Positions 3,998-29,056 of a stretch of 64,000 bases of DNA are shown here, in pieces (the stretch's first letter is position 1; every line of letters begins with the position of its first letter). The stretch comes from a virus (lineage: Duplodnaviria; Caudoviricetes), in the IMG/VR virus record IMGVR_UViG_3300008085_000002, positions 10 through 64,009 of that record. One strand, written 5' to 3'. The notes under the pieces are model-generated. The model made no database searches, was not told the origin of the DNA, and saw only the letters and a list, made by a program, of their open reading frames with translations. The position numbers and the translations under genes are program-made.

Positions 3998-6900
3998 TTA
4001 GGCCCCTCCTGCCGCGCGGCGCACCACCTCAGGGTTGTTATTGATGATGTTTACCACCGCGTCTTCGCCTTCCGGAGTGGCCAGGTATTCACCGACCAGC
4101 GCCGGGTCCAGCACGTTGATGATGCGCTGGTTGACCACCGGAGCAGCGGCCGGGCCGCCCCCATCGCCGAACGAGCCGGTGCCCTTGCGGACCTGATTGG
4201 GAGTGCGCACGTCGATCTGCTCCCCTGGGCTTGCCCGGAAAGCGACCACCTGGCTGTCAGGTCCACCGGAGCCGCCCACCTTCATCGAGCCACCCGTCAT
4301 GAAGCTGGCGTTCTGGCTCAAGATGCCTGCCACGTTGGCAGCCGTGGCCGCGCCCACCGCTGCAGCCGCGATGAAGTTGAACGGGGGTGGGAAGGCGCTG
4401 AGGGCCTTTTGGACTGCTAGGTAGCCGTCGATGGTGGCCTGGGTGATGGCAGCCGCCTTGCCAATGGCAGCGAGCTCCTTGTTCTTCGACTTGCTGAGCC
4501 CAGCCAGGATGCCGAAGAAGTCGCGCTGCTTCTGCAGCCGCGCCTCCAGCATGGCGATCTCCACATTGTTGAGCGCCTGAGCCGCGCTCTGGGCGTCGAT
4601 CAGGTTCGCATCCCGGAGTGCCTTGATCTGGTCGTAGTAGGTCTGGTACTGCGACAGCTGCGCATCGAGCGCCGACTGAGTGCCCTCGAAGAACTGACCG
4701 AGCTCGCTACCTCCAGCCAGCTGGCTAAAGGCGTCGGCAAGGGTGAAGCCCTGACCACTTTCGAGCAGGGCTTTGGCGTCAGCCACCTGGTCGATGAACG
4801 CCTGGCGCGCGCCGACCGTGGCACCAAGCAGATCATTCTGCCCCCGCATGGCCTCATTCTCTTCGAGCAGCAAGGTCAGCCACTCGCGCTCAGCATCGGT
4901 GAGCTCGCGACCCAGGTCACGCTGGATGCGCAGCAAGTCCGAGCGAATACTCTGCTCTCGGCCGGTCAGCTGCAGTAGCTCGTACTCATCGTTCAAGTCG
5001 CGAACGTAGTCTTCTAGGTACCGGGTGTCGCGCGCCGCATAGAGGGCGTCGAGCCGGGCATTGGCGAGCTCGCGCTCAGCGGTGGTGAGCTCCCGGTCAA
5101 GGTCTCGCTCCATGCGCAGGATGTCGGCACGGCGCTCGTGCTCCTGACCGCTGAACTGCAGCAGGTAGATTTCATCCTGCATGTCGCGGTTGTTGTCTCG
5201 CAGATAGCGGTTGTCCCGCGCCGCCTGGAGGGCGGTGATGCGCGCATTGGCGAGTGCGAGCTCAGACTGCGTCAGCTGGCGCTTCATCTGGTCTTCCAGC
5301 TGCCACAGCATCTGGCGGCGCTCGGCTTCCCGGTTGGACAAGCCCAGGAGCTCGATCTCGCGCTCAATGTCTCGCAGCCAGGTGTTCAGCGCCTCACGGG
5401 CCTTCTTCTCCGCATCGCTCAGGTCATTGGTCGACCGGGTGAGGTTCTGGGTCGCACCGTTGAGCTCCCCGACCGCATCACCCGCGCCTGCAGCGTTCTG
5501 CCGGGCCCGCTCCATCACCGCGTCGAGGGCGTTGCCAACATAGTCGGTGGAGAAGGCGTCATTGGCCGCCGCGCCGAAGTCGCGCGCGAATTGAGCCCCT
5601 GCATCGCTCGCCTTGGCACGGGGGATTTCCACGTTGAAGTTGTCCAGGAAACCACTCAGCGCGGCCCCTGCCTCGTCGTCGATCAGGCCCAGGCCGCCAG
5701 CGATCAAGCGCAGCGGCACCTGCCAGGCGTTGAGCAGCTTCTCGGCCGCCGCCGCCCCCAGGTTCACGACGCTGGTGAAGATAGCGTCCATGAAGCCGGG
5801 GAAGTTGTTCCACGCCAGCTGCACAGTGCGGAAGGCCAGCACCCAGAGGCCGATGTAGCCATTGATGGCGGTCTTGAGCACCTTGAGGATGAACGAGAAC
5901 ACCTCAGTGGCGGTCGTGCCAAGCGCGCGGAACAGGGCATTCACCGCACCCATCGCCGCGTCCCAGGCGGTTTGGAACAGGGCGACCACACCGGACACGC
6001 TCTCCCAGATCAGCTGCATCGCGGCCACAGCCACGTCTTTGAGCGACACGAGACCGTCTTCGGTCACCTTGATGTCGTCGCCGAAGGCGATGAAGAGCGT
6101 GATGAGCGCCGTGAGGGCAACCGCCAGCGCGCCCAGGGGGTTGCTGGCAATGGCGAGGGTGAGGCCCTGGAACGCACCCTGCAGGCCCTTCATGCTGATC
6201 GAGGTCAGCGCGGCCGCCACGCTGGTTGCGCCAAGGGCGCGCTCCAGCGCGATCATGGGACCGAGCACCCCGGCTACGGCGCTGGCGATCTGCCAGCCCG
6301 CGAAGGCCGCGCCGATGCCTATGACGAGCGGGATTATGTTGTCAAGGTTGTTGGCGAGCAGCAGGATGGTTTGCGCCAGCCCCTGGGCAATGCCGTTGGT
6401 GGTGACGAATTCGCCCCAGAGCTCGATCACCTTGTTGCGCAGCACGGTAAAGCTCTGGCCAATGGTCGGCACCGTCTGGGCAAAATTGCCATCGAGCTCT
6501 TCACGCGCTTGCTTGAAGGCGTCGAGCACGATCTCGGCAGTGATCTTGCCTTCCTGCCCCATCTGCCGGAGCTCGCCACGGGTGACCCCTAGCGACTTGG
6601 CAATCACGTCCGCCACAGCAGGCAGCTGTTCGAGCACAGACCGGAGCTCATCGCCTCGGAGCGCACCAGAGGCCAGGCCCTGGCTCAGCTGTATGATACC
6701 AGCTTCGGCTTCGGCCGCGCTGGCACCAGACAGTATGACCGCCTGATTGAGGCTCTCAGTGAACTGGAGAAGCTCTTCTTGCGACCGACCCAGGTCCTTG
6801 GCTGCGAGGCCGACACGAGCGTAGAGCTCGGCCGTGCCCTCATAGCTGCTTCGGGTACGGTTCGCTATGCCGAAGAGCTCGTCGGTCACACGCGCCAGGT

Positions 6901-7132
6901 TGGCCGTGTCGCTGGTGACAAGTCGGAGCCGGTTCTGCAGGTTGGTGTAGGTGTCAGCAAGGCGCACGAGCTCGCGCACTGCGAGCCCGCCGCCTATAAG
7001 GCCGAGAGCGCGGTTGAGGAGCGAGACCGCACCCTCGGCCCTCGTCGCGCCACCCCCGATGTCCTCAATGTTGCGTCGGACGGTACGGGAGCCTCGCTCG
7101 GAGACGATGATCTGAATGCGTTCAGTCGCCAT
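3998..7132 (-). CDS. Tail tape measure protein
   Basis: 1044 aa, Ala-rich helical; N-terminal tape-measure motif QLSQGLASGALRGDELRSVLEQLP; three ~54-aa internal repeats. Confidence 0.95.
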   Translation of the reverse strand: MATERIQIIVSERGSRTVRRNIEDIGGGATRAEGAVSLLNRALGLIGGGLAVRELVRLADTYTNLQNRLRLVTSDTANLARVTDELFGIANRTRSSYEGTAELYARVGLAAKDLGRSQEELLQFTESLNQAVILSGASAAEAEAGIIQLSQGLASGALRGDELRSVLEQLPAVADVIAKSLGVTRGELRQMGQEGKITAEIVLDAFKQAREELDGNFAQTVPTIGQSFTVLRNKVIELWGEFVTTNGIAQGLAQTILLLANNLDNIIPLVIGIGAAFAGWQIASAVAGVLGPMIALERALGATSVAAALTSISMKGLQGAFQGLTLAIASNPLGALAVALTALITLFIAFGDDIKVTEDGLVSLKDVAVAAMQLIWESVSGVVALFQTAWDAAMGAVNALFRALGTTATEVFSFILKVLKTAINGYIGLWVLAFRTVQLAWNNFPGFMDAIFTSVVNLGAAAAEKLLNAWQVPLRLIAGGLGLIDDEAGAALSGFLDNFNVEIPRAKASDAGAQFARDFGAAANDAFSTDYVGNALDAVMERARQNAAGAGDAVGELNGATQNLTRSTNDLSDAEKKAREALNTWLRDIEREIELLGLSNREAERRQMLWQLEDQMKRQLTQSELALANARITALQAARDNRYLRDNNRDMQDEIYLLQFSGQEHERRADILRMERDLDRELTTAERELANARLDALYAARDTRYLEDYVRDLNDEYELLQLTGREQSIRSDLLRIQRDLGRELTDAEREWLTLLLEENEAMRGQNDLLGATVGARQAFIDQVADAKALLESGQGFTLADAFSQLAGGSELGQFFEGTQSALDAQLSQYQTYYDQIKALRDANLIDAQSAAQALNNVEIAMLEARLQKQRDFFGILAGLSKSKNKELAAIGKAAAITQATIDGYLAVQKALSAFPPPFNFIAAAAVGAATAANVAGILSQNASFMTGGSMKVGGSGGPDSQVVAFRASPGEQIDVRTPNQVRKGTGSFGDGGGPAAAPVVNQRIINVLDPALVGEYLATPEGEDAVVNIINNNPEVVRRAAGGA

Positions 7133-13060: not shown

Positions 13061-14113
13061 TTACGCTTCGCGGGTGATGAGCCGCGCGATCTTGATCTGC
13101 TTGCGCTCCGGGAAGACCCGCTGCCAGGAGCCCGCTGCGCCCAGGTTGTTGCTGGTCGCAGCGTTGGTCGGGCCACCGTTCGGGGCCGTGCCGGCATACT
13201 TGTTGCCGACCGGGTGGAGCGACCATTCGACGCGGTTGTAGAGCGTCTCGGCACCGCCGCCGTTGCCAGCGCCGGGAAGGCGATGGACCTCGGTCGGGAT
13301 TTTCGGGGTGCCAACACCCAGGCGCACTGCGCCGGGGCCGAACAGCCAGGTCTCGTAGACGCCAGCGGCAGCCGGAACACCGTCGTCGACGATCACCTCG
13401 CGACCCAGGAAGGTCGGGATCATGACCTCCCCGCGCGCGTCGGGGATGAAGTCGATCAGGTTGTTCTTCTGCATGCGGTTGTAGACCACCGAGTGGACCA
13501 TCAGCATGGTGAGGCCTTCCTGGCTGTCACCCATGGTGAGCGCAGCGTCCAGGAATGCTTCGGCCGAGAAGTCGGTCACCCCGGCGCTGTAAGATGCGCC
13601 GCTGATGTCGTTGGTCAGGTCGCCCTGCACGTGCTCGGTCCCTGCCGGGGCCGCGTCGTTGTCGGCGAAGATGCCCTTCATGGTCGCCACGAAGGCGGCC
13701 TGCAGGCGGCGCGTCCAGTAGTAGGCCACGCGGTCACCGATGGCACCGGCCGGGTCCGAGCCAGCCAGGGTGGCGGCAAGGTCGGCGGTCGACCAGCTGT
13801 TGTTGCGGCTGAGCCGGACAGCGATTTCGGTGTCGCTCTCGATCTTCTTCGGATCGGGATCGGCAACGCCGGACGTGTATTCGGCCGGGATGCTGTCGGT
13901 CGACGTGCGTTCCTCGTCGTCGTCGAGGTCACGCCACGACGGGACGTTGAAAGTGAGACCGCCGCCAGCGAGCAGCTGGTCGATGGCCGGGTCACGGACC
14001 ATCGCGCCCGACTGGATCAGACGAGCCTTCTGCTCGGTCTGCTGCTGGACGTAGGGGGTGAAGATTTCGGGGACGACAACGTCCGCGATCTGAGTGATGG
14101 GTCCGTCGGCCAT
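13061..14113 (-). CDS. Major capsid protein
   Basis: ITQIADVVVPEIFTPYV...ARLIQSGAM N-terminus and NGGGAETLYNRVEWSLHPVG motif. Confidence 0.92.
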   Translation of the reverse strand: MADGPITQIADVVVPEIFTPYVQQQTEQKARLIQSGAMVRDPAIDQLLAGGGLTFNVPSWRDLDDDEERTSTDSIPAEYTSGVADPDPKKIESDTEIAVRLSRNNSWSTADLAATLAGSDPAGAIGDRVAYYWTRRLQAAFVATMKGIFADNDAAPAGTEHVQGDLTNDISGASYSAGVTDFSAEAFLDAALTMGDSQEGLTMLMVHSVVYNRMQKNNLIDFIPDARGEVMIPTFLGREVIVDDGVPAAAGVYETWLFGPGAVRLGVGTPKIPTEVHRLPGAGNGGGAETLYNRVEWSLHPVGNKYAGTAPNGGPTNAATSNNLGAAGSWQRVFPERKQIKIARLITREA

Positions 14114-14272: not shown

Positions 14273-15094
14273 CTACGCCTTCTTCGGAGCGGGCTTCGGA
14301 CCACCGATGCTGGTGCCAGCGGCCTTGGCCATCTGGTCAGCCTTCTGACGGTCCTGGTTCATGACGCGGCCCTGCTCGGTCATGTTCCAGTGGTCGTGCG
14401 ACCACGGGTTGTTGGCGAAGCCACCGCCGCCACCGTTGCCGCCCTGGGCTCCACCACCCTGGCTGGCAGGCCACCAGTGCGGCCGCTTGGGCTGCATTTC
14501 GGTGAGCCACTGGTCGGGGCTGAGGCCGGGGGTCACGCCCACACCGTCCTTGGTGGTGACCGAGCCGTCTTCACCGACCTCGAACACGCGGTCTGCGAGC
14601 ATGAGCACGTCGTCGATGGCGGTTTCGACCACCTTGCCCTTGAGCGCGGCCGACATCACATTGTCCTTGATGTCGCGGCTGCGGATGGTGTTCTGGAGCT
14701 CTTCGACCGTGGCCGTGGTCGCTTCGAGTTTGGTCTTCAGCTGGTCACGCTCGCGCTCGACCGGGCCAAGGGCCGTGCGGAGCCGCTTGTCAGCGAGCTC
14801 GGTGATCTTGTCCTCGTCGAGCTTGCCCTCGGCAGCTGCTTCGAGCTCCGGGTACTTGTCGAGCTTGGCGTGGACCTCTTCGGGGTCCAGGTCGTTGAAC
14901 AGCGCCAGGCGATCCTTGGCCGCCTTGTGGTCGTTGCGCTCCTTGGTGAGCGCGCCGTTCAATCGGTCGATGTCCGCCTGCGTCTTGATGCCTTCAACGC
15001 CAGTGAGAACGTACTTGCCGTCCTTTTCAGCGTACAGGGGGCGGAAGGGCTCGTCGATCTCGTCGACGGTGTCGTGGACTACTTTGAGACCCAT
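14273..15094 (-). CDS. Capsid scaffolding protein
   Basis: Coiled coil; PHWWPASQGGGAQGG...NPW C-terminus; directly upstream of the capsid gene. Confidence 0.8.
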   Translation of the reverse strand: MGLKVVHDTVDEIDEPFRPLYAEKDGKYVLTGVEGIKTQADIDRLNGALTKERNDHKAAKDRLALFNDLDPEEVHAKLDKYPELEAAAEGKLDEDKITELADKRLRTALGPVERERDQLKTKLEATTATVEELQNTIRSRDIKDNVMSAALKGKVVETAIDDVLMLADRVFEVGEDGSVTTKDGVGVTPGLSPDQWLTEMQPKRPHWWPASQGGGAQGGNGGGGGFANNPWSHDHWNMTEQGRVMNQDRQKADQMAKAAGTSIGGPKPAPKKA

Positions 15095-15191
15095 GTCTCA
15101 TCCTTTCGTGTTCTCGGCCCATGCCGTAGGCTCCGGGGCCATCCTCGGAGCAAACCGGAACATGGTCGAGAAGCCCAGGGGAGGCAAGCGT

Positions 15192-15225
15192 GAAAGAAGG
15201 GCCCCCAGGTTTCCCTGAGAGCCCT
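15192..15225 (-). terminator. Rho-independent terminator downstream of the tmRNA
   Basis: AGGGCTCTCAGG-GAAA-CCTGGGGGCCCT followed by TCTTTC. Confidence 0.7.
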
Positions 15226-15287
15226 CCTAGCACCCGTGCCAACGGAATGCTGCGACCCAAAGGCTCGTGCCCTCGGCTATGAAACTC

Positions 15288-15614
15288 GTGGGGACCTTCT
15301 GTTCCAAGGCCGTCCCCGGAGCCCGTGTCAAGCTGCCTTAGGCGGCGAGACGATGTGCCATTGCTGGCTCGTTGTCGTTGACATTTAGTCAGCTGTCCCG
15401 TCACGGTGGGCCAATCCGAGCCGCGTCCCTACCTCAGCCTACACAGTCGATCCTGGTTCAGGCCCATCATCAACCCTCAGTCCCGCCTTGCCAGGCCCCC
15501 ATCCGGGGAAGGGCTATCCAGCGAGCCGTCCGGCTCGACTGAGGGCTGGTGGTGGACCTGGCGGGTACTGCCCCCGCGTCCTGTGCATCCATCAGCGGGC
15601 CGAATTACGGCCGT
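15288..15614 (-). ncRNA. ssrA: Two-piece (circularly permuted) alphaproteobacterial-type tmRNA: acceptor piece ~15614-15550, intervening segment 15549-15466, coding piece 15465-~15288
   Basis: T-arm GCGGG-GGCAGTA-CCCGC, then CAGGTCC-A-CCA (CCA end at 15550); 5' end GGGCCTGAACCAGGATCGAC at 15465 pairs with it to give a 7-bp acceptor stem with G3:U70; helix CUGUGUA/UGCACAG; TAAAT resume context; tag ORF ending LAA*; alpha-type 3' motif GGAACAGAAG. The exact outer ends are estimates. Confidence 0.93.
15338..15382 (-). other. tmRNA proteolysis-tag reading frame VNDNEPAMAHRLAA*
   Basis: GTC AAC GAC AAC GAG CCA GCA ATG GCA CAT CGT CTC GCC GCC TAA, directly after GACTAAAT. Confidence 0.9.
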
Positions 15615-15620
15615 GCATCC

Positions 15621-15649
15621 TGGGTGCCTCAAGGGAAGCACCCAGGCAA
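15621..15649 (-). promoter_or_regulatory. Putative promoter of the tmRNA gene
   Basis: TTGCCT-N17(ending TGAGG)-CACCCA, same pattern as other phage promoters; overlaps inverted repeat CCTGGGTGC...GCACCCAGG. Confidence 0.6.
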
Positions 15650-15654
15650 TCGGT

Positions 15655-16974
15655 TTAGAGGGCCACCACCTTGCAGCGGTTCAGCTGTGTCTCCTGGGCC
15701 CCGTTGTAGTCGCTGTGGCGCTTCACCGTCCCGTCCAACTTGCACTGCTGACCGTTCTGGAGGCCGGTGCCGCTGGCGGTAAACCAGGTGTACATGTTCC
15801 CAGCCTCGTCGCGGAACTTGACCAGGACCATGTCGCCCCAATCGCTGCTGATCGAGCGGCTGAGCTCCTGGGTCACGATGAGGCCCTTGAGGCGCTCGCC
15901 CACCTGACCCTGCCAGCGGCTGTTGGCGTCGACCTTCTTGGCCTTGGCGCGCTCGACTTCACGCTCCATGGCGCGCTCGTAGGAGGCCACCGCGCTGCAG
16001 ACGAAGCCAGCCCGCTTCATCTCAGTGAGCTCGGTCGAGCAGAGCACCTGGAGGTTGTGGCCGTAGTCGCCCGTACCAGCGCCGCCTTCGGCTGCCCACT
16101 GGACGACGCGCTCTGCGAGCTCCCAATCGGCCTCGGTCACTGCCTTGGCGAGCTCGTCCATGCGCGCCTTGCGGTCACGATTGTAGTCTTTGCCGATATC
16201 CATCGGCGGCCACAGCACGTCGGTCACATGGTCGCGGGTGGAGGTGATCTCCTGAGCCATCGCCTGGGCCTTGGAAGCCCAGCCGCGAAGGCGGATGCAG
16301 GCCGAGCTCAGGGCAACAACCTCAACGGTCGGGGCAAAACCGCCCCAGCCGCTGCCACCCCATTCGCTCTCGCTGTCCCGGATGGCCTTGAAGAAGGCGA
16401 ACCGCTGAGCGACCTGGCTGGGGTCGCAGTAGCCGAGAAAGTCCTTGAGGCAGGTACGGCCGACCTGGACCTCTTCGCCAGTCTCAGTGTTGCGGAGCAC
16501 GAAGGTCTCGTTCCGCTGGCGGTCGGTGCGGCAATGCTCACACGAGCTCTTGGTGGTGCGGAAGCGGCGGTCGACGGTACGGCCGGGGATAATGTCGACG
16601 ATGTTGCCGCCCTGGGTGTGCTCGATCTTGGCGAGAAACTCGTACGGGCCGACCTGGGGTGCGCTGCCTTCGATCGTGACCGGCACCCGCCAAGGGCCCA
16701 GCACCTCAACCTTGCGGCCGTCGAAACGGGTGCGGGTCTCGCGCTCCTGGAAAGGCTCGCCGAAGCTGTAGCTCACATCCGGGTTGCCGTAGCGGGTGGC
16801 CTTGCGGACCAGCTTGTCGAGCTCCTTGCGGGCTTCGGCCATGCGGTCCTGCAGGATGAGGATGGTCTGGGGGCCAGTGGTGGCCTCGTATTCTTCGCGC
16901 TCAGCGGCCATCTCGGCCTCAAGGGCTTCACGGTCGTCGAGGGCGATTAGGCCGGGAGCGATCTGGGTAGGCAT
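15655..16974 (-). CDS. Hypothetical early protein with Cys motifs and probable C-terminal OB fold
   Basis: CEHC..., VGRTCLKDFLG motif; C-terminal beta-rich segment ending QETQLNRCKV; own promoter and AGAAAAGGAG RBS. Confidence 0.6.
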   Translation of the reverse strand: MPTQIAPGLIALDDREALEAEMAAEREEYEATTGPQTILILQDRMAEARKELDKLVRKATRYGNPDVSYSFGEPFQERETRTRFDGRKVEVLGPWRVPVTIEGSAPQVGPYEFLAKIEHTQGGNIVDIIPGRTVDRRFRTTKSSCEHCRTDRQRNETFVLRNTETGEEVQVGRTCLKDFLGYCDPSQVAQRFAFFKAIRDSESEWGGSGWGGFAPTVEVVALSSACIRLRGWASKAQAMAQEITSTRDHVTDVLWPPMDIGKDYNRDRKARMDELAKAVTEADWELAERVVQWAAEGGAGTGDYGHNLQVLCSTELTEMKRAGFVCSAVASYERAMEREVERAKAKKVDANSRWQGQVGERLKGLIVTQELSRSISSDWGDMVLVKFRDEAGNMYTWFTASGTGLQNGQQCKLDGTVKRHSDYNGAQETQLNRCKVVAL

Positions 16975-16999
16975 GAGACAATCTCCTTTTCTGGAGACC

Positions 17000-17028
17000 G
17001 GCATGCCTCAGGCCAGCGCAAAAGACAA
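17000..17028 (-). promoter_or_regulatory. Putative phage early promoter
   Basis: TTGTCT-N17(ending CTGAGG)-CATGCC followed by AGAAAAGGAG RBS. Confidence 0.65.
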
Positions 17029-17032
17029 GCCC

Positions 17033-17569
17033 CTACTTGATCACTTTGCAGAAAAACGGCAGCACGTAGAAGTGCCCCGGCATGCCCACCTTCATCTTGC
17101 GCTCGTTGATGAGCTCCACGAAGCGGGTGCGCTGCTCCGGGCTGAGGTGCTGGAAGTAGAACTTGGCATGGGTCGTCGCCATGCGCGGCTCGACCTTCAC
17201 CCAATGGCCGTCTGGCCAGTTGGCCTGCTGCCAAGGGTCCAGCGGGAGCTCGGCACGGTTTTCCGGGGTGATCTCCACCCAGCCTTCACCCTGCTACGGA
17301 AAGTTGGCCGACGAGTAGATGGTCGGCGCTCCCACACCTGGGTCTGGCACGTCGAGGTAGGCCTTGTAGCTCTTGTCAGTTGGCCCAATCTCCACGCCTG
17401 CTTCGGCCGCCTTCATGAACTCGTCAGGGTGCAAGCTCCCACAGTAGCCGCACACCAGGTGGCCGTCCCTGGGCTTCCACTCGGTCTCCCCGTTCATGAG
17501 CGGTTTGAAAGGGCTGTCGGGCCCTCCACCATTCTCGATGGCGCGGGGGCAGAAGAACTTGTCGCTCAC
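17033..17569 (-). pseudogene. Single reading frame interrupted by one in-frame TAG (17296-17294): pseudogene, readthrough gene or split gene
   Basis: ...AAC TTT CCG TAG CAG GGT GAA GGC TGG GTG GAG...; ORFs 17294..17569 and 17033..17278 are in the same frame, 5 codons apart. Confidence 0.55.
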
Positions 17570-18765
17570 AGGAAGTCCTCAGGATCAAGGCCAGCGGCCC
17601 GGAAGGCGTCGGCGTGTTGCTTGGCCAGTTGGCCCAGGGGGATTTCATCACCGGCACGGTTGACGAAGCGGTCCAGGGTCAATCCGCCCTTGCGGAACAG
17701 CTTGGCACGGGTCGTCCCCAGCACGTCGTCCTGGAAGCTCGCGCTCTGGCGAGTGAGCCACTGCTGGTAGGTCGTCTTGCCAGGCACCCGGCCGGTCAGG
17801 TCCCTGATGCGGGTGCGAGCGAACTGGTCGTAGGCGGTCTTGGTGCCATGGGGCAGGTTCGCGCGCTTGGTGGGCGCGGGGAAGCCATTCTTGGCGCTGA
17901 ACTCCCTCAGCAGCTGGCGTTCGGTGACCGGCTTGGCAGGCCTGGAGCCCAGGGCGTCACCGTCGATGACCGGCACTCGTAGGGAGCGGCAGTTGAAGTG
18001 CAACGGGGGCAGCGGCCCCTTGCCGACCGGGAACCGCTTGCCGTCATTAGAGCGGCACACAGGAGTGGTGCGAGCATCGAGCGTGGCAACGTACTGCTCC
18101 TCATCGAACAGGTCGGCATTGGCGTTCAGGAATTCCCGACGCGCCTGATTGGAGATGTGGTTGACCGCCGTGCGAGTGATGGCCTCAGCGTTGCGGCGGG
18201 TGATCTGCGTCACCCCGTCGACCCCGCGCAAGGCAGCCGAGCCGACCACGCGGCGCGCGATCTGCTGGGAGCTCTCGCCCTGGACCATGCCCACTCGTAC
18301 TGCGTTCTCGATGCGGCGCAGGTCTTCGCTGGCGATCGAGCTCGCCCACTCGCGCAAGGTGCGGCCCTCGAAGGGGTTGGTCTTCACGATCGACTTGAGC
18401 AGGTTGGCGCTCGGCAGCGCCAGGTCCAGCACCACCGGGGCTACCGTCTTGGTGACCGCCGCCATCAGCACCGGCTCGTTGGTGGCCAGGTCCTGGAGCT
18501 CTTCGAGCCACGCCTCAGTGACCTGGCTCCAGGCGGTGAGGCGGGTCTTGCGGATGGCCGCCAGCGTGGCCTCCATGCGGCGCACAGAGGCCGGGGTGTC
18601 CAGGCCATTCGTCCCAGCGAGCCGGGCAATGATCTTGTCCTTGATGTCCTGTTCGGTAGCGTCCAGCAGCCGGTAGATGCGGTTGCGGATCGACCCGCTC
18701 ATCCGGAGCAGGTAAATCTGGTGCCGCACTAGGGCGTCGAAGAGCTCTTCATTGACCGTGGCCAT
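17566..18765 (-). CDS. Head morphogenesis protein (SPP1 gp7 / MuF-like)
   Basis: YVATLDARTTPVCRSNDGKRF...PPLHFNCRS motif. Confidence 0.88.
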   Translation of the reverse strand: MATVNEELFDALVRHQIYLLRMSGSIRNRIYRLLDATEQDIKDKIIARLAGTNGLDTPASVRRMEATLAAIRKTRLTAWSQVTEAWLEELQDLATNEPVLMAAVTKTVAPVVLDLALPSANLLKSIVKTNPFEGRTLREWASSIASEDLRRIENAVRVGMVQGESSQQIARRVVGSAALRGVDGVTQITRRNAEAITRTAVNHISNQARREFLNANADLFDEEQYVATLDARTTPVCRSNDGKRFPVGKGPLPPLHFNCRSLRVPVIDGDALGSRPAKPVTERQLLREFSAKNGFPAPTKRANLPHGTKTAYDQFARTRIRDLTGRVPGKTTYQQWLTRQSASFQDDVLGTTRAKLFRKGGLTLDRFVNRAGDEIPLGQLAKQHADAFRAAGLDPEDFL

Positions 18766-19001
18766 CAGTGCCTCGTTGCCGTGTAATCCGCCAGCTGGGC
18801 GGCGGCCCACATCCCGTCAGGGGTGGGCGTGGTGATGAAGACCGCGTCGTCAGGCTCGTCCACTTCGTCACCGTCCTCGTCGTGCAAGGTGATCGGGCTC
18901 GTCGTCCCGTCGCTCCACATTCCCAGCCGCTGGCTGAGGTTGATAGCGACCAGGTCGGGAGGCTCTGGGCAGGTGGAGGTGGGTGAGACGGGAGCGTTCA
19001 T
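18765..19001 (-). CDS. Hypothetical protein
   Basis: 78-aa ORF with TGATG overlap into the next gene. Confidence 0.5.
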   Translation of the reverse strand: MNAPVSPTSTCPEPPDLVAINLSQRLGMWSDGTTSPITLHDEDGDEVDEPDDAVFITTPTPDGMWAAAQLADYTATRH

Positions 19002-19013
19002 GGCTTACCCCGC

Positions 19014-20552
19014 TCACCGCGCGCTGCCCCCGGCCGGTTGCTGACCGGGCGGGGTGTCATCATCCTCTTCATCGTCGTCCTGGGCTCCTTGTTCCAGGGC
19101 GTTCTGTTCGAGCTCGAATTGGCGATCGGTGTTGGCCTGACTGGAGCCGGTGAGGGGCTCTTCGCTCTCGATCTCGTCGATTTCGGCCTCGTACTCCAGC
19201 TGGGTAAGGCCACGGTCCTGCATCAGGGCGTGGACGCTCTTGCGGCTGATCGGCGCGCCAAGGTTCTTGGAGGTCATGAGCTCGACCAGCGACTTGGTGT
19301 CGAAGCTGCTGTCGGCGAATTCGAGGTTCGGCTGAACGCTGACCTCGTCAGGGTTGGCACCGACCCAGACCGCAGCGGTCTTGAGCAGGCGCTCCAGGCC
19401 CATGGCTCCGGACAAGGCGATCGTGGTGAGGCTGGCCACGGCGGCCGCCACACGGGTCTGCAGAGCATCCCCGCTCTCGATCTGCTTGGACTTGGCGGTG
19501 GCCAGGCGGCCTGCCACCTGGGCAGCCTCGCTCCGGTCGTTCTCGATGGCCTGACGCTGCTCACCAAGACCATCGGCCGACACACCAATGTACTTGGCGT
19601 CGCCACCAATGGGCACGTCGATGATAGCACCCGCGCCTACCCGCTGCTCGTTGTCGTCATCGACGAAGCCGATGCGGACGAGCGTGTCCTGGCCCTGCAT
19701 GAACAGGTTCTGGCGGTAGTCGGCTTCACCCCGGTAGATGGCATAGCAGACCCGTGCGAGGCCCAGGAGGGGCGGGTCGTCGGGGCTGGAGACCGTGTCC
19801 TTGGTGTTGATGAACTCGAACGGGATGCGGTCGAGCTTGCGGCCCCGGATGCTGGGCTCCAGCAGCTGCCCCTCGTTGAAGGTCAGTGTGTCGTCTTCGG
19901 TGAACAGGCCCTGCCGGTAGGTCCCTGCTGCCTCGTTGGCCAGAGCGTCACCCAGCACGAGCGCGCGGTACTGCTCCTTGTACTCCCAGTCGAAGTCAGC
20001 CTTGCGTTTGAACTCGCTCTCGTCGAGCACCACCAGGTTGAGCACCGGCCGGTCCAGCTGCTGCTTGGAGCCGTCATCCCAGTTGATGATCGTCTCAGCA
20101 CGGTACAGCGCGATGTAGGGAAGCGGCCGCGCCGGGTCAGGGTTGCGGGGCAGGTCCAACATGAGCCCCACACGGCCGGTCACCAGCTGCTGCTCGTTGA
20201 TGCGGCGCAAGAGGTGCTCGATGGGGTCGCCATTGGCGTCGGCGCTCTCCCGGAGCGGCTCCAGCGCGGCCGGGAGCTCGATGGTCGGCTTGCGGCTGTG
20301 CATCATGCCGATGAAGTGCTCGACCGCCAGGCTGACGAAGTCGGGGAACACAGCGCGCTTGAGGTAGGCTTGGTAGGCCTTGTACCCCAGCTGATTGGCG
20401 TTGTCCATCCCGTCAGCGATCATGCCGCTCGTCGGCGGCAGGTGGACCTGGCCTCGGCTCTTGACCACACGCTCGCCACGGTAGGCGTCGCGGCAGTCGC
20501 GCCAGTCGTCGCTGAATTCCCCGTATTGTGGATGCTTGCTGTTCAGCGCCAT
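19014..20552 (-). CDS. Portal protein (DUF4055-like)
   Basis: HPQY...YQAYLKRAVFP and IYRGEADYRQNLFMQGQDTLV motifs; follows terminase. Confidence 0.9.
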   Translation of the reverse strand: MALNSKHPQYGEFSDDWRDCRDAYRGERVVKSRGQVHLPPTSGMIADGMDNANQLGYKAYQAYLKRAVFPDFVSLAVEHFIGMMHSRKPTIELPAALEPLRESADANGDPIEHLLRRINEQQLVTGRVGLMLDLPRNPDPARPLPYIALYRAETIINWDDGSKQQLDRPVLNLVVLDESEFKRKADFDWEYKEQYRALVLGDALANEAAGTYRQGLFTEDDTLTFNEGQLLEPSIRGRKLDRIPFEFINTKDTVSSPDDPPLLGLARVCYAIYRGEADYRQNLFMQGQDTLVRIGFVDDDNEQRVGAGAIIDVPIGGDAKYIGVSADGLGEQRQAIENDRSEAAQVAGRLATAKSKQIESGDALQTRVAAAVASLTTIALSGAMGLERLLKTAAVWVGANPDEVSVQPNLEFADSSFDTKSLVELMTSKNLGAPISRKSVHALMQDRGLTQLEYEAEIDEIESEEPLTGSSQANTDRQFELEQNALEQGAQDDDEEDDDTPPGQQPAGGSAR

Positions 20553-20601: not shown

Positions 20602-22182
20602 TCAGTGGTGACCAGCCGTCACCCGGCTGCTGCCGGTGCGGATGGCCATGTTGCGGACGCGGTACCGCGTCTCGTCGGCGATGTGGTCTTCAGCGTCGGT
20701 GTCAATGTCGTCCATGTCTTTCTCATCGCGGGGTAGCGAGGGCACCGTGCGGACGAATTGCTGGCAGGCGTCGAAGATGAACAGGCCTGGGCGCTCGCGC
20801 GGCCCGTCGACCGGCTTCACCGCGTTCTGGAAGGCCATGCGCATCTGCTCCCAGCCGTTCTTGCGGGAGCCGGGGCGCTTGTCGGCCTTGAGCCACTGAA
20901 CGCCCTTGTACTCCCGGCCGTCAGCCAGGCGCACTTTGCGAGCCATGTCGACCGCGATGCAGTTGCCGTTCTCGGTGTCGAAGATCGAGCTATCCGCCAC
21001 CCCGGCATGGACGCGGCTCCGGGTCTGGTCGCGCCAGCCCCATCGGACCTCTCGCTCCACGATGCCCTTGGCGATGTCGCTGGCCAGCATCTTGAGGCCC
21101 TCGTTCGGCTTGCCAGTCCACCCGTACCACTCGGCACAGCGGAACAGGTCGCCGCGCACCGTCGAGCGCCAGCTGCCGTCGGGCATGCGCACGTCTGAGC
21201 CGTCGCTGGTCGCCCACCACCCCACTGAGAAAGGCTTGGACGAGCCCCAGTCAAAGCTCCGGTCGATGCGCCAGTTGGCTGGGATGACGAAACGCGGCAC
21301 CAGGTGGATGCGCGGCTTCCACACGTCGCCGAACATGCCGCCAGCGACGATGTCCCACGAGCCCTCCAGCCAGGCGGCTGCCATAGCCGGGTTGGCCGCT
21401 GAGGCGATGATCGTCGACTTGTAGTGAGGGTCGGCCGCCAAGAGCAGCTTGTTCTCGTCGATGTGGCCATGGATAGCCGTGCGGGTCGGCTCGGCATTGC
21501 CCTCAGCATCAGTGCAGTCGGTCTGCCGTACGATGTACTTCCAGCGGTAGGCGAGCTTGAACCGCTCCTTGACCCAGCTGTGACCGACGCCATACGGGTT
21601 GGTGGTTGCACGCACCATGCGCGGCACCCCCGGCTTGGAGGTTCGGCAGCAAGAGAACATCGACTTGTAGCACTCGTCAGTTGGCCAGTTGGTGAGCTCT
21701 TCCCAGCCGATGAACGGGTACTCGTGGCCGTGGTAATTCCAGTAGTCGGTCGGCTTCGCCATGTGGCGTAGCAGCAGGACCTCTCCGGTAGGCCACTCCC
21801 ACATCATCTTGGTGCGGTTGAACTTGGCTCCGGGGAACATCTGCCGAAACCACTTCTCGCTCTTGGCCTGAACGTCCGCCAGCTGAGGGTAGGTCTGTCG
21901 AAAGATGATCCCGCGCCAGGCTACCCCATGCCCTTGACCAACGTGCTTGGCGAAGCTCATCAGCAGAGTGTCGGTCTTACCGGGGCCGCGTGTGCCGTGG
22001 TACAGCGTCTCGAAGTCGGGGCACATGAGGTACAGCCGCTGGCTGCCCTCCTGGGCTTCCCAGATGATCTCCCGGCCGTCGACCGTTCGCCGGGTCGGGA
22101 CCTTGGCCTCTTGGGCAGCGGCCTCTGCGTACCGCTTGTCGTATTCCTCCTGCTCCTCAGGAGTGGGGGCATAGGTGCTCAC
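20602..22182 (-). CDS. terL: Terminase large subunit
   Basis: GTRGPGKT Walker A, FIGWEELT Walker B, RSFDWGSSKPFS nuclease motif, DAEDHIADETRY. Confidence 0.95.
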   Translation of the reverse strand: MSTYAPTPEEQEEYDKRYAEAAAQEAKVPTRRTVDGREIIWEAQEGSQRLYLMCPDFETLYHGTRGPGKTDTLLMSFAKHVGQGHGVAWRGIIFRQTYPQLADVQAKSEKWFRQMFPGAKFNRTKMMWEWPTGEVLLLRHMAKPTDYWNYHGHEYPFIGWEELTNWPTDECYKSMFSCCRTSKPGVPRMVRATTNPYGVGHSWVKERFKLAYRWKYIVRQTDCTDAEGNAEPTRTAIHGHIDENKLLLAADPHYKSTIIASAANPAMAAAWLEGSWDIVAGGMFGDVWKPRIHLVPRFVIPANWRIDRSFDWGSSKPFSVGWWATSDGSDVRMPDGSWRSTVRGDLFRCAEWYGWTGKPNEGLKMLASDIAKGIVEREVRWGWRDQTRSRVHAGVADSSIFDTENGNCIAVDMARKVRLADGREYKGVQWLKADKRPGSRKNGWEQMRMAFQNAVKPVDGPRERPGLFIFDACQQFVRTVPSLPRDEKDMDDIDTDAEDHIADETRYRVRNMAIRTGSSRVTAGHH

Positions 22183-28843: not shown

Positions 28844-29056
28844 TCACCAGCTGCTTCCCTTCTTGATTGGGTCATCACGGCGCTCCAGCTTGAGCCGGTG
28901 GGCCTTCCCGATAACCGCATTCTTGGTGACCGCCCCACCCAGCTTCTTGGCGATGGTAGAGGCGGGCACCCCGTTCTCCCACATAGACCTGAGCGTTGCC
29001 ACACGGTCGTCGCTCCAGAAGGTCTGCTCCTTGAGCCCAGGGATGCGCTCAGCCAT
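28844..29056 (-). CDS. gcrA: GcrA-like protein (N-terminal domain only, 70 aa)
   Basis: WSDDRVATLRSMWENGVPASTIAKKLGGAVTKNAVIGKAHRLKL matches the GcrA N-terminal signature. Confidence 0.88.
   Translation of the reverse strand: MAERIPGLKEQTFWSDDRVATLRSMWENGVPASTIAKKLGGAVTKNAVIGKAHRLKLERRDDPIKKGSSW

What the first reader, a model, noticed from the sequence alone, without database searches (positions are those of the whole stretch)
15288..15614. Phage-encoded two-piece (permuted) tmRNA of alphaproteobacterial type
Seen directly on the minus strand: a promoter; an acceptor piece ending GCGGG-GGCAGTA-CCCGC-CAGGTCC-A-CCA (15550); an 84-nt spacer; then a coding piece starting GGGCCTGAACCAGGATCGAC (15465). 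The two ends pair into a 7-bp acceptor stem with the G3:U70 AlaRS determinant and discriminator A. A second helix (CUGUGUA/UGCACAG) joins the pieces. A tag ORF ending LAA-stop and a terminator follow. Established: alphaproteobacterial ssrA is permuted in this order, and one-piece tmRNAs are known in some phages. I cannot confirm whether permuted ones have been reported in phages. No smpB was recognised, so it would need host SmpB, RNase P and AlaRS. Inference: the phage brings its own trans-translation RNA to free stalled ribosomes or to replace a host tmRNA cut by defence toxins.
Basis: partly seen in the sequence, partly recalled or inferred. Interest (0 to 1): 0.92.

Follow-up and report, generated by a model that had tools for sequence, protein, structure and literature searches.

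The report
Two-piece tmRNA gene in a phage
A complete 64-kb phage genome carries a well-conserved, circularly permuted (two-piece) ribosome-rescue RNA of the alphaproteobacterial type, but phages with such genes have already been described, so this is a new example and not a new kind of thing.

Summary
ARAGORN and two Rfam models (tmRNA_permuted 94 bits, alpha_tmRNA 91 bits, both full length) call a permuted tmRNA on the minus strand. It has an acceptor piece ending in CCA at 15550, an 84-nt spacer, a coding piece from 15465, the tag VNDNEPAMAHRLAA and a terminator hairpin.

The window is a complete virus genome with terminal repeats. The gene lies between head-morphogenesis and scaffold genes. 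Six related phage contigs carry it at the same place. Both pieces are 87-92% conserved and the spacer only 32% (26-124 nt). Ten of 31 base pairs show compensatory changes, G3:U70 is invariant, and the tag frame is under purifying selection.

The phage has no SmpB, integrase or tRNA genes. More distant relatives, five of them complete genomes, lack the tmRNA.

The 'phage-encoded' reading is therefore supported. It is not new: Buchholz et al. 2022 counted 53 two-piece tmRNAs in phage genomes, and this scan has met such genes many times on other DNA.

Three points are mildly unusual. The host phage is a small siphovirus with no tRNA genes. The resume codon is Val. The tag family occurs in four unrelated phage backbones but was not found in any chromosomal ssrA searched.

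Function is inferred. No expression data could be obtained.

The parts
15619..15659 (-). Conserved box (ACCGATTGCC) and strong hairpin directly after the stop codon of the upstream ORF. It may be a 5' leader, a processing signal or a promoter region of the tmRNA gene. Its role is not established.
   Evidence: Conserved in the relatives (alignment A2). The hairpin folds at -23.4 kcal/mol, z -4.5. There is no sigma-70 consensus and the box is not enriched in the genome.
15550..15615 (-). Acceptor piece: 5' strands of three helices that pair with the coding piece (GGCCG 15612-15608, CGGCCCG, UGCACAG 15587-15581), T-arm 15577-15561, acceptor 3' strand 15560-15554, discriminator A 15553, and encoded CCA 15552-15550. 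The 5' end is not determined.
   Evidence: Covariation. Mean identity among 6 phages is 87%.
15466..15549 (-). Intervening spacer of 84 nt, presumed to be removed when RNase P cuts before G15465 and the CCA end is trimmed. It folds into a closed stem structure and holds no ORF.
   Evidence: Mean identity is only 32% and length is 26-124 nt in relatives. It folds at -46.9 kcal/mol, z -3.3. Processing itself is inferred.
15287..15465 (-). Coding piece: acceptor 5' strand GGGCCUG 15465-15459, D-loop-like GAACCAGGAUCGAC, 3' strands of the joining helices (CUGUGUA 15446-15440, AGGGACG 15430-15424, CGGCU 15423-15419), a candidate pseudoknot-1 region, the tag ORF and a 3' hairpin domain.
   Evidence: Full-length match to RF01849, ending at 15287. 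Identity is 90% for the 5' part and 83% for the 3' part.
15338..15382 (-). Tag reading frame: resume codon GUC (Val), then NDNEPAMAHRLAA and UAA. With the Ala carried by the tmRNA the appended tag would be AVNDNEPAMAHRLAA.
   Evidence: ARAGORN. The frame is intact in 10 phage sequences, NDN and RLAA are invariant with synonymous changes, and identity is 92%.
15191..15224 (-). Intrinsic-terminator-like hairpin (GGGCUCUCAGG-GAAA-CCUGGGGGCCC) followed by UUCUUUCA. It probably ends the tmRNA transcript.
   Evidence: RNAalifold on 7 phages gives 14 pairs, 5 of them with compensatory changes.
15655..17004 (-). Upstream neighbour: a 449-aa ORF (PHROG 2319, unknown function, no Pfam hit). It is variable cargo and is not linked to the tmRNA.
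   Evidence: It is absent from all six relatives that keep the tmRNA.
14273..15094 (-). Downstream neighbour: head scaffolding protein gene, followed by the major head protein gene at 13061-14113.
   Evidence: PHROG 206 at E 8e-53 and PHROG 247 at E 2e-106.
17566..18810 (-). Head morphogenesis (SPP1 gp7/MuF-like) gene. In tmRNA-less relatives such as RDJL3 it directly abuts the scaffold gene.
   Evidence: PHROG 241 at E 7e-134. RDJL3 gene map.

Best explanation
This is a functional, phage-encoded, circularly permuted ssrA gene.

Inferred steps. A precursor of about 400 nt is transcribed on the minus strand from near 15615 to the terminator at about 15191. Host RNase P cuts before G15465, and host 3'-end enzymes trim the precursor to the encoded CCA at 15550, discarding the 84-nt spacer. 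Host AlaRS then charges the RNA through G3:U70 and discriminator A. Host SmpB and EF-Tu deliver it to ribosomes stalled on broken mRNAs. Translation resumes at GUC and appends AVNDNEPAMAHRLAA, whose C-terminal LAA marks the product for ClpXP-type proteolysis.

Shown by sequence and covariation. The two pieces are held together by the 7-bp acceptor stem and three further helices.

Likely benefit (inferred). The gene keeps ribosomes free during late, capsid-producing infection, when host mRNA decay or host defence nucleases create non-stop messages.

Origin. The gene was acquired once in this phage clade, at a cargo slot between the morphogenesis and scaffold genes.
For: Detection: ARAGORN and two Rfam covariance models at about twice their cut-offs, matched over their full length.

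Phage origin: a complete genome with direct terminal repeats, head genes on both sides, and the same arrangement in L123, L124, L125, L126, L084 and L203/L206.

Structure under selection: on 9 phage sequences 93.1% of pair cells are paired, against 38-51% when partners are slid. Ten of 31 pairs change on both sides (0 of 500 shuffles reach this). The acceptor stem is 100% paired with three compensatory pairs, and G3:U is invariant.

Two-piece architecture: the pieces are 87-92% identical and the spacer 32%, with lengths of 26-124 nt.

Tag under purifying selection: NDN and RLAA are invariant with synonymous changes in 10 sequences.

Own terminator with covariation.

Not a recent host copy: the best of 151 sampled alphaproteobacterial ssrA genes scores 84 bits on the clade model, against 125-213 bits for the clade.

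Precedent: two-piece tmRNAs in phages (PMC9004378) and tmRNAs in phages of Sphingobium, Caulobacter and Sinorhizobium.
Against: There are no expression, processing, charging or tagging data.

No promoter could be identified, so transcription may depend on read-through from upstream late genes.

The resume codon is Val, not the usual Ala.

Helix 2 has a constant G.A mismatch, and its last pair is mostly unpaired.

The pseudoknot-1 region is invariant, so it gives no covariation support.

The host is unknown, so compatibility with host SmpB and AlaRS cannot be examined.
Confidence: 0.8

Rival explanations
1. Anti-defence spare part. The main benefit is to replace, or outnumber, host tmRNA that is cleaved or inactivated by host toxins or abortive-infection nucleases. 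The phage copy has diverged in sequence so that it escapes them. This rival concerns the benefit only and shares the mechanism of the best explanation.
For: The phage tmRNA is far from sampled host ssrA genes: 91-115 bits on alpha_tmRNA against 229 bits for a canonical host copy in the same MAG, and at most 84 bits for hosts on the clade model. It is the only RNA gene of a small phage, which suggests a specific need and not a general translation kit.
Against: No defence system aimed at tmRNA was identified here. No HicA-type RNase is encoded by the phage. Divergence could simply reflect long residence in phages.
Confidence: 0.12
2. Inhibitor or decoy. The RNA mainly titrates host SmpB or blocks host trans-translation, as reported for the tRNA-like-domain-only molecule of mycobacteriophage DS6A, and does not tag proteins itself.
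For: DS6A precedent (PMC4131195; PMC11915505). The phage brings no SmpB of its own.
Against: The full coding piece, the resume-codon context and the tag frame are conserved under purifying selection in 10 sequences. A decoy would not need them.
Confidence: 0.05
3. Not a working phage gene: a recently captured host ssrA, an attP-type ssrA fragment used for integration, or an assembly chimera.
For: ssrA is a common integration site for temperate elements (PMC4383910, listed). Many IMG/VR contigs are prophage cut-outs.
Against: The model match is full length and not a 3' fragment. There is no tyrosine integrase. The genome is complete with direct terminal repeats. The gene sits in the middle of the head gene cluster. 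Seven independent assemblies share the arrangement and show compensatory evolution. No near-identical host ssrA was found.
Confidence: 0.03

Closest known systems
Phage-encoded two-piece tmRNAs of aquatic phages (OM43 phage Melnitz, pelagimyophages; Buchholz et al. 2022, PMC9004378)
   Same: A circularly permuted ssrA of the alphaproteobacterial lineage, carried complete in a phage genome that has no SmpB and no integrase. The function is inferred only.
   Different: Those are T4-like myophages of about 140 kb with tRNA genes, and the Melnitz gene is linked to a glutamine riboswitch and an early promoter. Here the phage is a 64-kb siphovirus with no tRNA genes. The gene sits among late head genes with its own terminator, the tag family is different, and Rfam detects no riboswitch in the window (one search lists only the two tmRNA models).
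Chromosomal two-piece tmRNA of Alphaproteobacteria (Caulobacter; Keiler, Shapiro and Williams 2000, cited; Rfam RF01849)
   Same: It shares the gene order (acceptor piece, spacer, coding piece), the 7-bp acceptor stem with G3:U70, a T-loop of the GGCNGUA type, an NDN tag start and an AA tag end.
   Different: It is phage-borne. It scores only 91 bits on RF01849, against 229 bits for a canonical host gene. The resume codon is Val. The tag is longer, with the motif EP..A.RLAA. No adjacent or co-resident smpB is present.
tmRNAs annotated in large phages of Alphaproteobacteria (Sphingobium phage Lacusarx 130 kb, Caulobacter phage Shash 223 kb, Sinorhizobium phage AP-J-162 471 kb)
   Same: A phage of a probable alphaproteobacterial host that carries a tmRNA.
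   Different: Those genomes are 2-7 times larger and carry 24-66 tRNA genes. This one has no tRNA at all. blastn found no similarity to any phage record in the INPHARED collection.
One-piece tmRNAs of mycobacteriophages (Bxz1 group) and the tRNA-like-domain-only RNA of DS6A (Hudson et al. 2014, PMC4131195)
   Same: A phage-encoded ssrA-type RNA that depends on host SmpB.
   Different: Those have the standard, non-permuted gene form, and DS6A lacks a tag frame. Here the gene is permuted and keeps a conserved tag frame.

Membership tests
Permuted (two-piece) tmRNA, alphaproteobacterial type (Rfam RF04321 / RF01849) | Scores above the curated covariance-model cut-offs over the whole model | tested here: met
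   RF04321 scores 94.3 bits (cut-off 47) and RF01849 scores 91 bits (cut-off 50), matching model positions 1-213 and 1-355. Repeated on the whole record.
Permuted (two-piece) tmRNA, alphaproteobacterial type (Rfam RF04321 / RF01849) | Permuted gene order: the 3' half of the tRNA-like domain with encoded CCA lies upstream of the 5' acceptor strand and the tag frame | tested here: met
   CCA is at 15550 and G1 at 15465, both on the minus strand. ARAGORN labels the gene permuted.
Permuted (two-piece) tmRNA, alphaproteobacterial type (Rfam RF04321 / RF01849) | A 7-bp acceptor stem formed between the two pieces, with the G3:U70 AlaRS determinant and discriminator A | tested here: met
   The stem is 100% paired in 9 sequences, three pairs are compensatory, and U:G is invariant in 9 of 9.
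Permuted (two-piece) tmRNA, alphaproteobacterial type (Rfam RF04321 / RF01849) | T-arm and further helices that hold the pieces together | tested here: met
   The T stem is 100% paired with one compensatory pair. Helices 1 and 3 are 100% and 92% paired with compensatory changes. Helix 2 is 77% paired and has a constant G.A mismatch.
Permuted (two-piece) tmRNA, alphaproteobacterial type (Rfam RF04321 / RF01849) | Tag reading frame that resumes after a UA-containing context, starts (A)NDN and ends AA-stop | tested here: met
   The context is UAAAU|GUC. The frame NDN...RLAA-UAA is kept in 10 sequences with synonymous changes. The resume codon is Val in 6 of the 10 and Ala in 4.
Permuted (two-piece) tmRNA, alphaproteobacterial type (Rfam RF04321 / RF01849) | An intervening segment that is excised, so that it is free to vary | tested here: met
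   The free variation is shown: spacer identity is 32% and length 26-124 nt, against 87-92% identity for the pieces. Excision itself could not be tested.
Permuted (two-piece) tmRNA, alphaproteobacterial type (Rfam RF04321 / RF01849) | Pseudoknot 1 upstream of the resume codon | tested here: inconclusive
   The sequence allows CGG/CCG plus CCC/GGG pairings, but the region is invariant among the relatives, so covariation can neither support nor reject it.
Permuted (two-piece) tmRNA, alphaproteobacterial type (Rfam RF04321 / RF01849) | Works with SmpB, is alanylated, and tags proteins | not testable with these tools
   There is no SmpB gene in the phage, so host SmpB would be needed.
ssrA-derived attachment site (attP) of a temperate element | Only a 3' fragment of ssrA is present, next to an integrase gene | tested here: not met
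   The gene is full length. No tyrosine integrase is present. The gene lies inside the head gene cluster.
tRNA-like-domain-only phage tmRNA mimic (DS6A type) | Lacks a tag reading frame | tested here: not met
   A conserved 14-codon tag frame is present.

The most novel reading that the evidence does not exclude
The gene belongs to a phage-adapted tmRNA lineage with its own tag, (V/A)NDN(E/Q/A)Pxx A x RLAA. This lineage moves between unrelated phage backbones. I found it in this siphovirus clade, in a phage with a Mu-like portal (L014), in a phage with a 12-tRNA array (L202) and in a primase-helicase element (L204). A scan of 185,579 species' genomes found it in no chromosomal ssrA. If so, phages would keep a private ribosome-rescue and tagging RNA tuned to their own needs, for example a different fate for tagged proteins or resistance to host nucleases, and would not simply borrow the host gene.
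Probability: 0.2. Interest if true: 0.55.

Novelty: new member of a known kind. Interest (0 to 1): 0.3.

Why it matters
Phage-borne tmRNAs are widespread, but none has a demonstrated function. This clade offers a compact case to test one. The phage is 64 kb and its only RNA gene is a tmRNA. The gene sits in a defined cargo slot, and natural relatives exist both with and without it. Seven sequences already show which parts are under selection. An isolate of this group would allow clean knock-out and complementation experiments on why a phage needs its own ribosome-rescue RNA. As a discovery of a new kind of element it does not matter much, because two-piece tmRNAs in phages are already in the literature and recur in this scan.

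Tried and rejected
- blastn of the tmRNA against the INPHARED phage collection found no match, so no cultured close relative could be used.
- A search for relatives with the 449-aa upstream ORF found nothing. The ORF later proved to be absent from all relatives.
- The E. coli-type promoter and terminator scan of 15000-15800 found nothing. The terminator was then shown by comparative folding. The promoter stays unconfirmed, and the conserved box CGATTGCC is not enriched (4 matches against 2.6 expected).
- The first terminator fold used a stretch cut too short (first sequence) and was redone.
The helices of the coding piece's 3' half were inspected only by eye.
- My first structure mapping landed on spurious spacer matches and was corrected.
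- The host could not be named.
- One family scan failed on a wrong frame and was repeated.
- Complex prediction and the structure-prediction tools were not used, because no protein partner is in question.

Full report
**What is there.** On the minus strand of 15191-15659 lies a complete circularly permuted tmRNA gene. Reading the sequence gives the following order:
- a strong hairpin just after the stop codon of the upstream ORF;
- an acceptor piece with the T-arm GCGGG-GGCAGUA-CCCGC (15577-15561), the acceptor 3' strand CAGGUCC (15560-15554), discriminator A (15553) and an encoded CCA ending at 15550;
- an 84-nt spacer (15549-15466);
- a coding piece beginning GGGCCUG at 15465, whose first seven bases pair with CAGGUCC to give a G3:U pair.

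ARAGORN calls a permuted tmRNA at 15247-15642 with tag VNDNEPAMAHRLAA. Rfam gives full-length matches to tmRNA_permuted (94.3 bits, cut-off 47) and alpha_tmRNA (91 bits, cut-off 50).

**Is it really in a phage?** The window is essentially a whole IMG/VR virus record of 64,009 bp with direct terminal repeats, rated 100% complete. PHROG scans place the gene in the head module, with all genes co-oriented on the minus strand:
- large terminase (20602-22182);
- portal (19014-20552);
- head morphogenesis protein (17566-18810);
- a 449-aa ORF of unknown function (15655-17004);
- the tmRNA;
- scaffold (14273-15094);
- major head protein (13061-14113);
- tape measure protein (3998-7132).

The major head protein is 65-68% identical to those of siphoviruses of about 58-60 kb, such as Pseudomonas phages PaMx25 and NP1, Roseobacter phage RDJL3 and several Vibrio phages. 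The genome has no SmpB, no tyrosine integrase and no tRNA gene. It does encode a GcrA N-terminal domain (59.5 bits). GcrA is a cell-cycle regulator characteristic of Alphaproteobacteria (my own knowledge). This fits an alphaproteobacterial host, as does the 64% G+C.

**Relatives.** A scaffold-protein profile recovered 80 viral loci. The five closest, with scaffold 81-93% identical (L123, L124, L125, L126, L084), each have a permuted tmRNA directly upstream of the scaffold gene. So does a 42.9-kb contig binned into a 'Gammaproteobacteria' MAG (L203/L206).

The 75 more distant loci (scaffold at most 54% identical) have none, by ARAGORN or by a clade-specific covariance model. Five complete genomes among them have no permuted tmRNA anywhere. 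In RDJL3 the morphogenesis and scaffold genes are only 57 bp apart.

The gene was therefore gained once in this clade, at a cargo slot. In three distant relatives the same slot holds a tRNA gene (L131, L169, L170). The 449-aa ORF is absent from every relative, so it is unrelated cargo.

**Evidence of selection on the RNA.** Among six aligned genes, mean pairwise identity by region is as follows:

| Region | Mean identity |
|---|---|
| Acceptor piece | 87% |
| Coding piece, 5' part | 90% |
| Tag | 92% |
| 3' part | 83% |
| Spacer (26-124 nt long) | 32% |

This is the pattern expected if the spacer is discarded.

I built a covariance model of the tRNA-like domain and the joining helices and used it to align nine phage sequences. 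The pair counts were as follows:
- 93.1% of cells are paired, against 38-51% when the partners are slid.
- Ten of 31 pairs change on both sides; no shuffle out of 500 reaches this.
- The acceptor stem is paired in every sequence. It reads GGGCCUG/CAGGUCC in the window, GGGGGUG/CACCUCC in four relatives, GGGGGCG/CGCCUCC in L124 and GGGGCCG/CGGCUCC in L206.
- G3:U never changes.

The tag frame is intact in ten sequences. NDN and RLAA are invariant despite synonymous changes, and replacements occur only at positions 1, 5, 7, 8 and 10. A hairpin followed by UUCUUUCA (15224-15191) follows the gene, and five of its 14 pairs are compensatory.

**How it most likely works.** The steps are inferred from established tmRNA biology and are not shown here. 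A precursor is cut by host RNase P before G15465 and trimmed to CCA at 15550. The two pieces stay together through the acceptor stem and three helices. Host AlaRS charges the RNA via G3:U70. Host SmpB and EF-Tu bring it to stalled ribosomes. Translation resumes at GUC and adds AVNDNEPAMAHRLAA, whose LAA end directs ClpXP-type proteolysis.

The gene's position among late head genes suggests that it keeps ribosomes free when capsid proteins are made in bulk. I rate this reading at 0.8.

Three rivals remain:
- An anti-defence role is a variant of the benefit and not a different mechanism (0.12).
- A decoy role like that of DS6A is disfavoured by the conserved tag frame (0.05).
- A non-functional host capture, an attP fragment or a chimera is essentially excluded (0.03).

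**Comparison with what is known.**
- Buchholz et al. 2022 (PMC9004378) described a complete two-piece ssrA of the alphaproteobacterial lineage in OM43 phage Melnitz. They also reported that 402 of 18,146 phage genomes encode tmRNAs with 133 unique structures, 53 of them two-piece by ARAGORN.
- tmRNAs are also annotated in Sphingobium phage Lacusarx, Caulobacter phage Shash and Sinorhizobium phage AP-J-162.
- The 2025 tmRNA database lists 79 phage sequences.
- In IMG/VR, a degenerate alpha-type T-arm/acceptor pattern hit more than 120 contigs. All 91 of those I tested carry a complete permuted tRNA-like domain, and ARAGORN called full genes in 77 of 120.
- Earlier work in this scan has repeatedly met phage two-piece tmRNAs on other DNA.

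The finding is therefore a new member of a known kind.

**What is mildly unusual.**
1. The carrier is a small siphovirus with no tRNA genes, whereas the published alphaproteobacterial-phage examples are 130-470 kb with many tRNAs.
2. The resume codon is Val in six of ten related sequences. This is not unique, since other IMG/VR tmRNAs also show Val.
3. The tag family NDNxPxxAxRLAA looks phage-specific. A scan of one genome from each of 185,579 species found it only three times, and each time on phage-like DNA:
   - L203 is a relative of this phage.
   - L202 carries a 12-tRNA array, an RNA ligase and a helicase.
   - L204 carries a phage-type primase and helicase.

L204 lies in a Croceibacterium MAG whose canonical ssrA scores 229 bits on alpha_tmRNA and encodes ANDNHALAIAA. 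The phage-like copy in that MAG scores 115 bits. L014, a phage fragment with a Mu-like portal, encodes ANDNAPVTALRLAA with nearly identical tag DNA.

On the clade model, the best of 151 sampled alphaproteobacterial genomes scores 84 bits, against 125-213 bits for the clade. That sample included one unpublished genome, G043, on which no claim here depends.

Together these results suggest, but do not prove, a tmRNA lineage that circulates among phages.

**Limits.** No expression or processing data could be obtained. The host is not identified. The structure of the coding piece beyond the joining helices rests on the Rfam match and on inspection only.

Noticed in passing
window 15115-15151 (minus strand), 5' UTR of the scaffold gene: Two tandem hairpins, each with an AUGG loop, lie between the tmRNA terminator and the scaffold start codon. 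The first has 6 of its pairs compensatory across 6 phages. The second (CGGC-AUGG-GCCG) is invariant. This may be a translational operator or a protein-binding site for late head-gene expression.
   Followed up: partly
window 15655-17004; L131 3662-3736; L169 and L170 3527-3601: The interval between the morphogenesis and scaffold genes is a cargo slot. It holds a 449-aa ORF (PHROG 2319, no Pfam hit) only in this phage, other small ORFs in the close relatives, and a tRNA-Gly or tRNA-Thr gene in three distant relatives.
   Followed up: partly
window about 28850-29017 (minus strand): A short ORF matches only the N-terminal part (model positions 3-57 of 155) of the GcrA cell-cycle regulator at 59.5 bits. 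This agrees with an earlier first-reader note and hints at an alphaproteobacterial host.
   Followed up: partly
L203/L206 (JAGVDA/DAIRDB MAG contigs) and L202: Contigs deposited in a 'Gammaproteobacteria bacterium' MAG and a 'Thermosynechococcus sp.' MAG are phage DNA. L203 is a close relative of this phage. L202 has a 12-tRNA array, a tmRNA and an RNA ligase. Their taxonomic labels should not be read as hosts.
   Followed up: partly
L204/L208 and L205 (Croceibacterium MAG): This MAG holds two alpha-type tmRNA genes. One is a canonical ssrA (229 bits, tag ANDNHALAIAA). The other is a phage-type copy (115 bits, tag ANDNEPVMALRLAA) next to phage-type primase and helicase genes. It may be a prophage, or a phage co-binned with a sphingomonad.
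   Followed up: partly
L124 3548-3693: This relative has the shortest spacer (26 nt). Relative to the other members it has an extra G:C pair in the T-stem (6 bp in place of 5), and one joining helix is wholly rewritten yet still pairs.
   Followed up: no
window 15619-15646 (minus strand): A 12-bp hairpin (-23.4 kcal/mol, z -4.5) without a U-tract sits between the upstream stop codon and the acceptor piece. A hairpin is present at this place in most relatives, with differing sequence. It could be a processing site or a protective 5' structure.
   Followed up: partly
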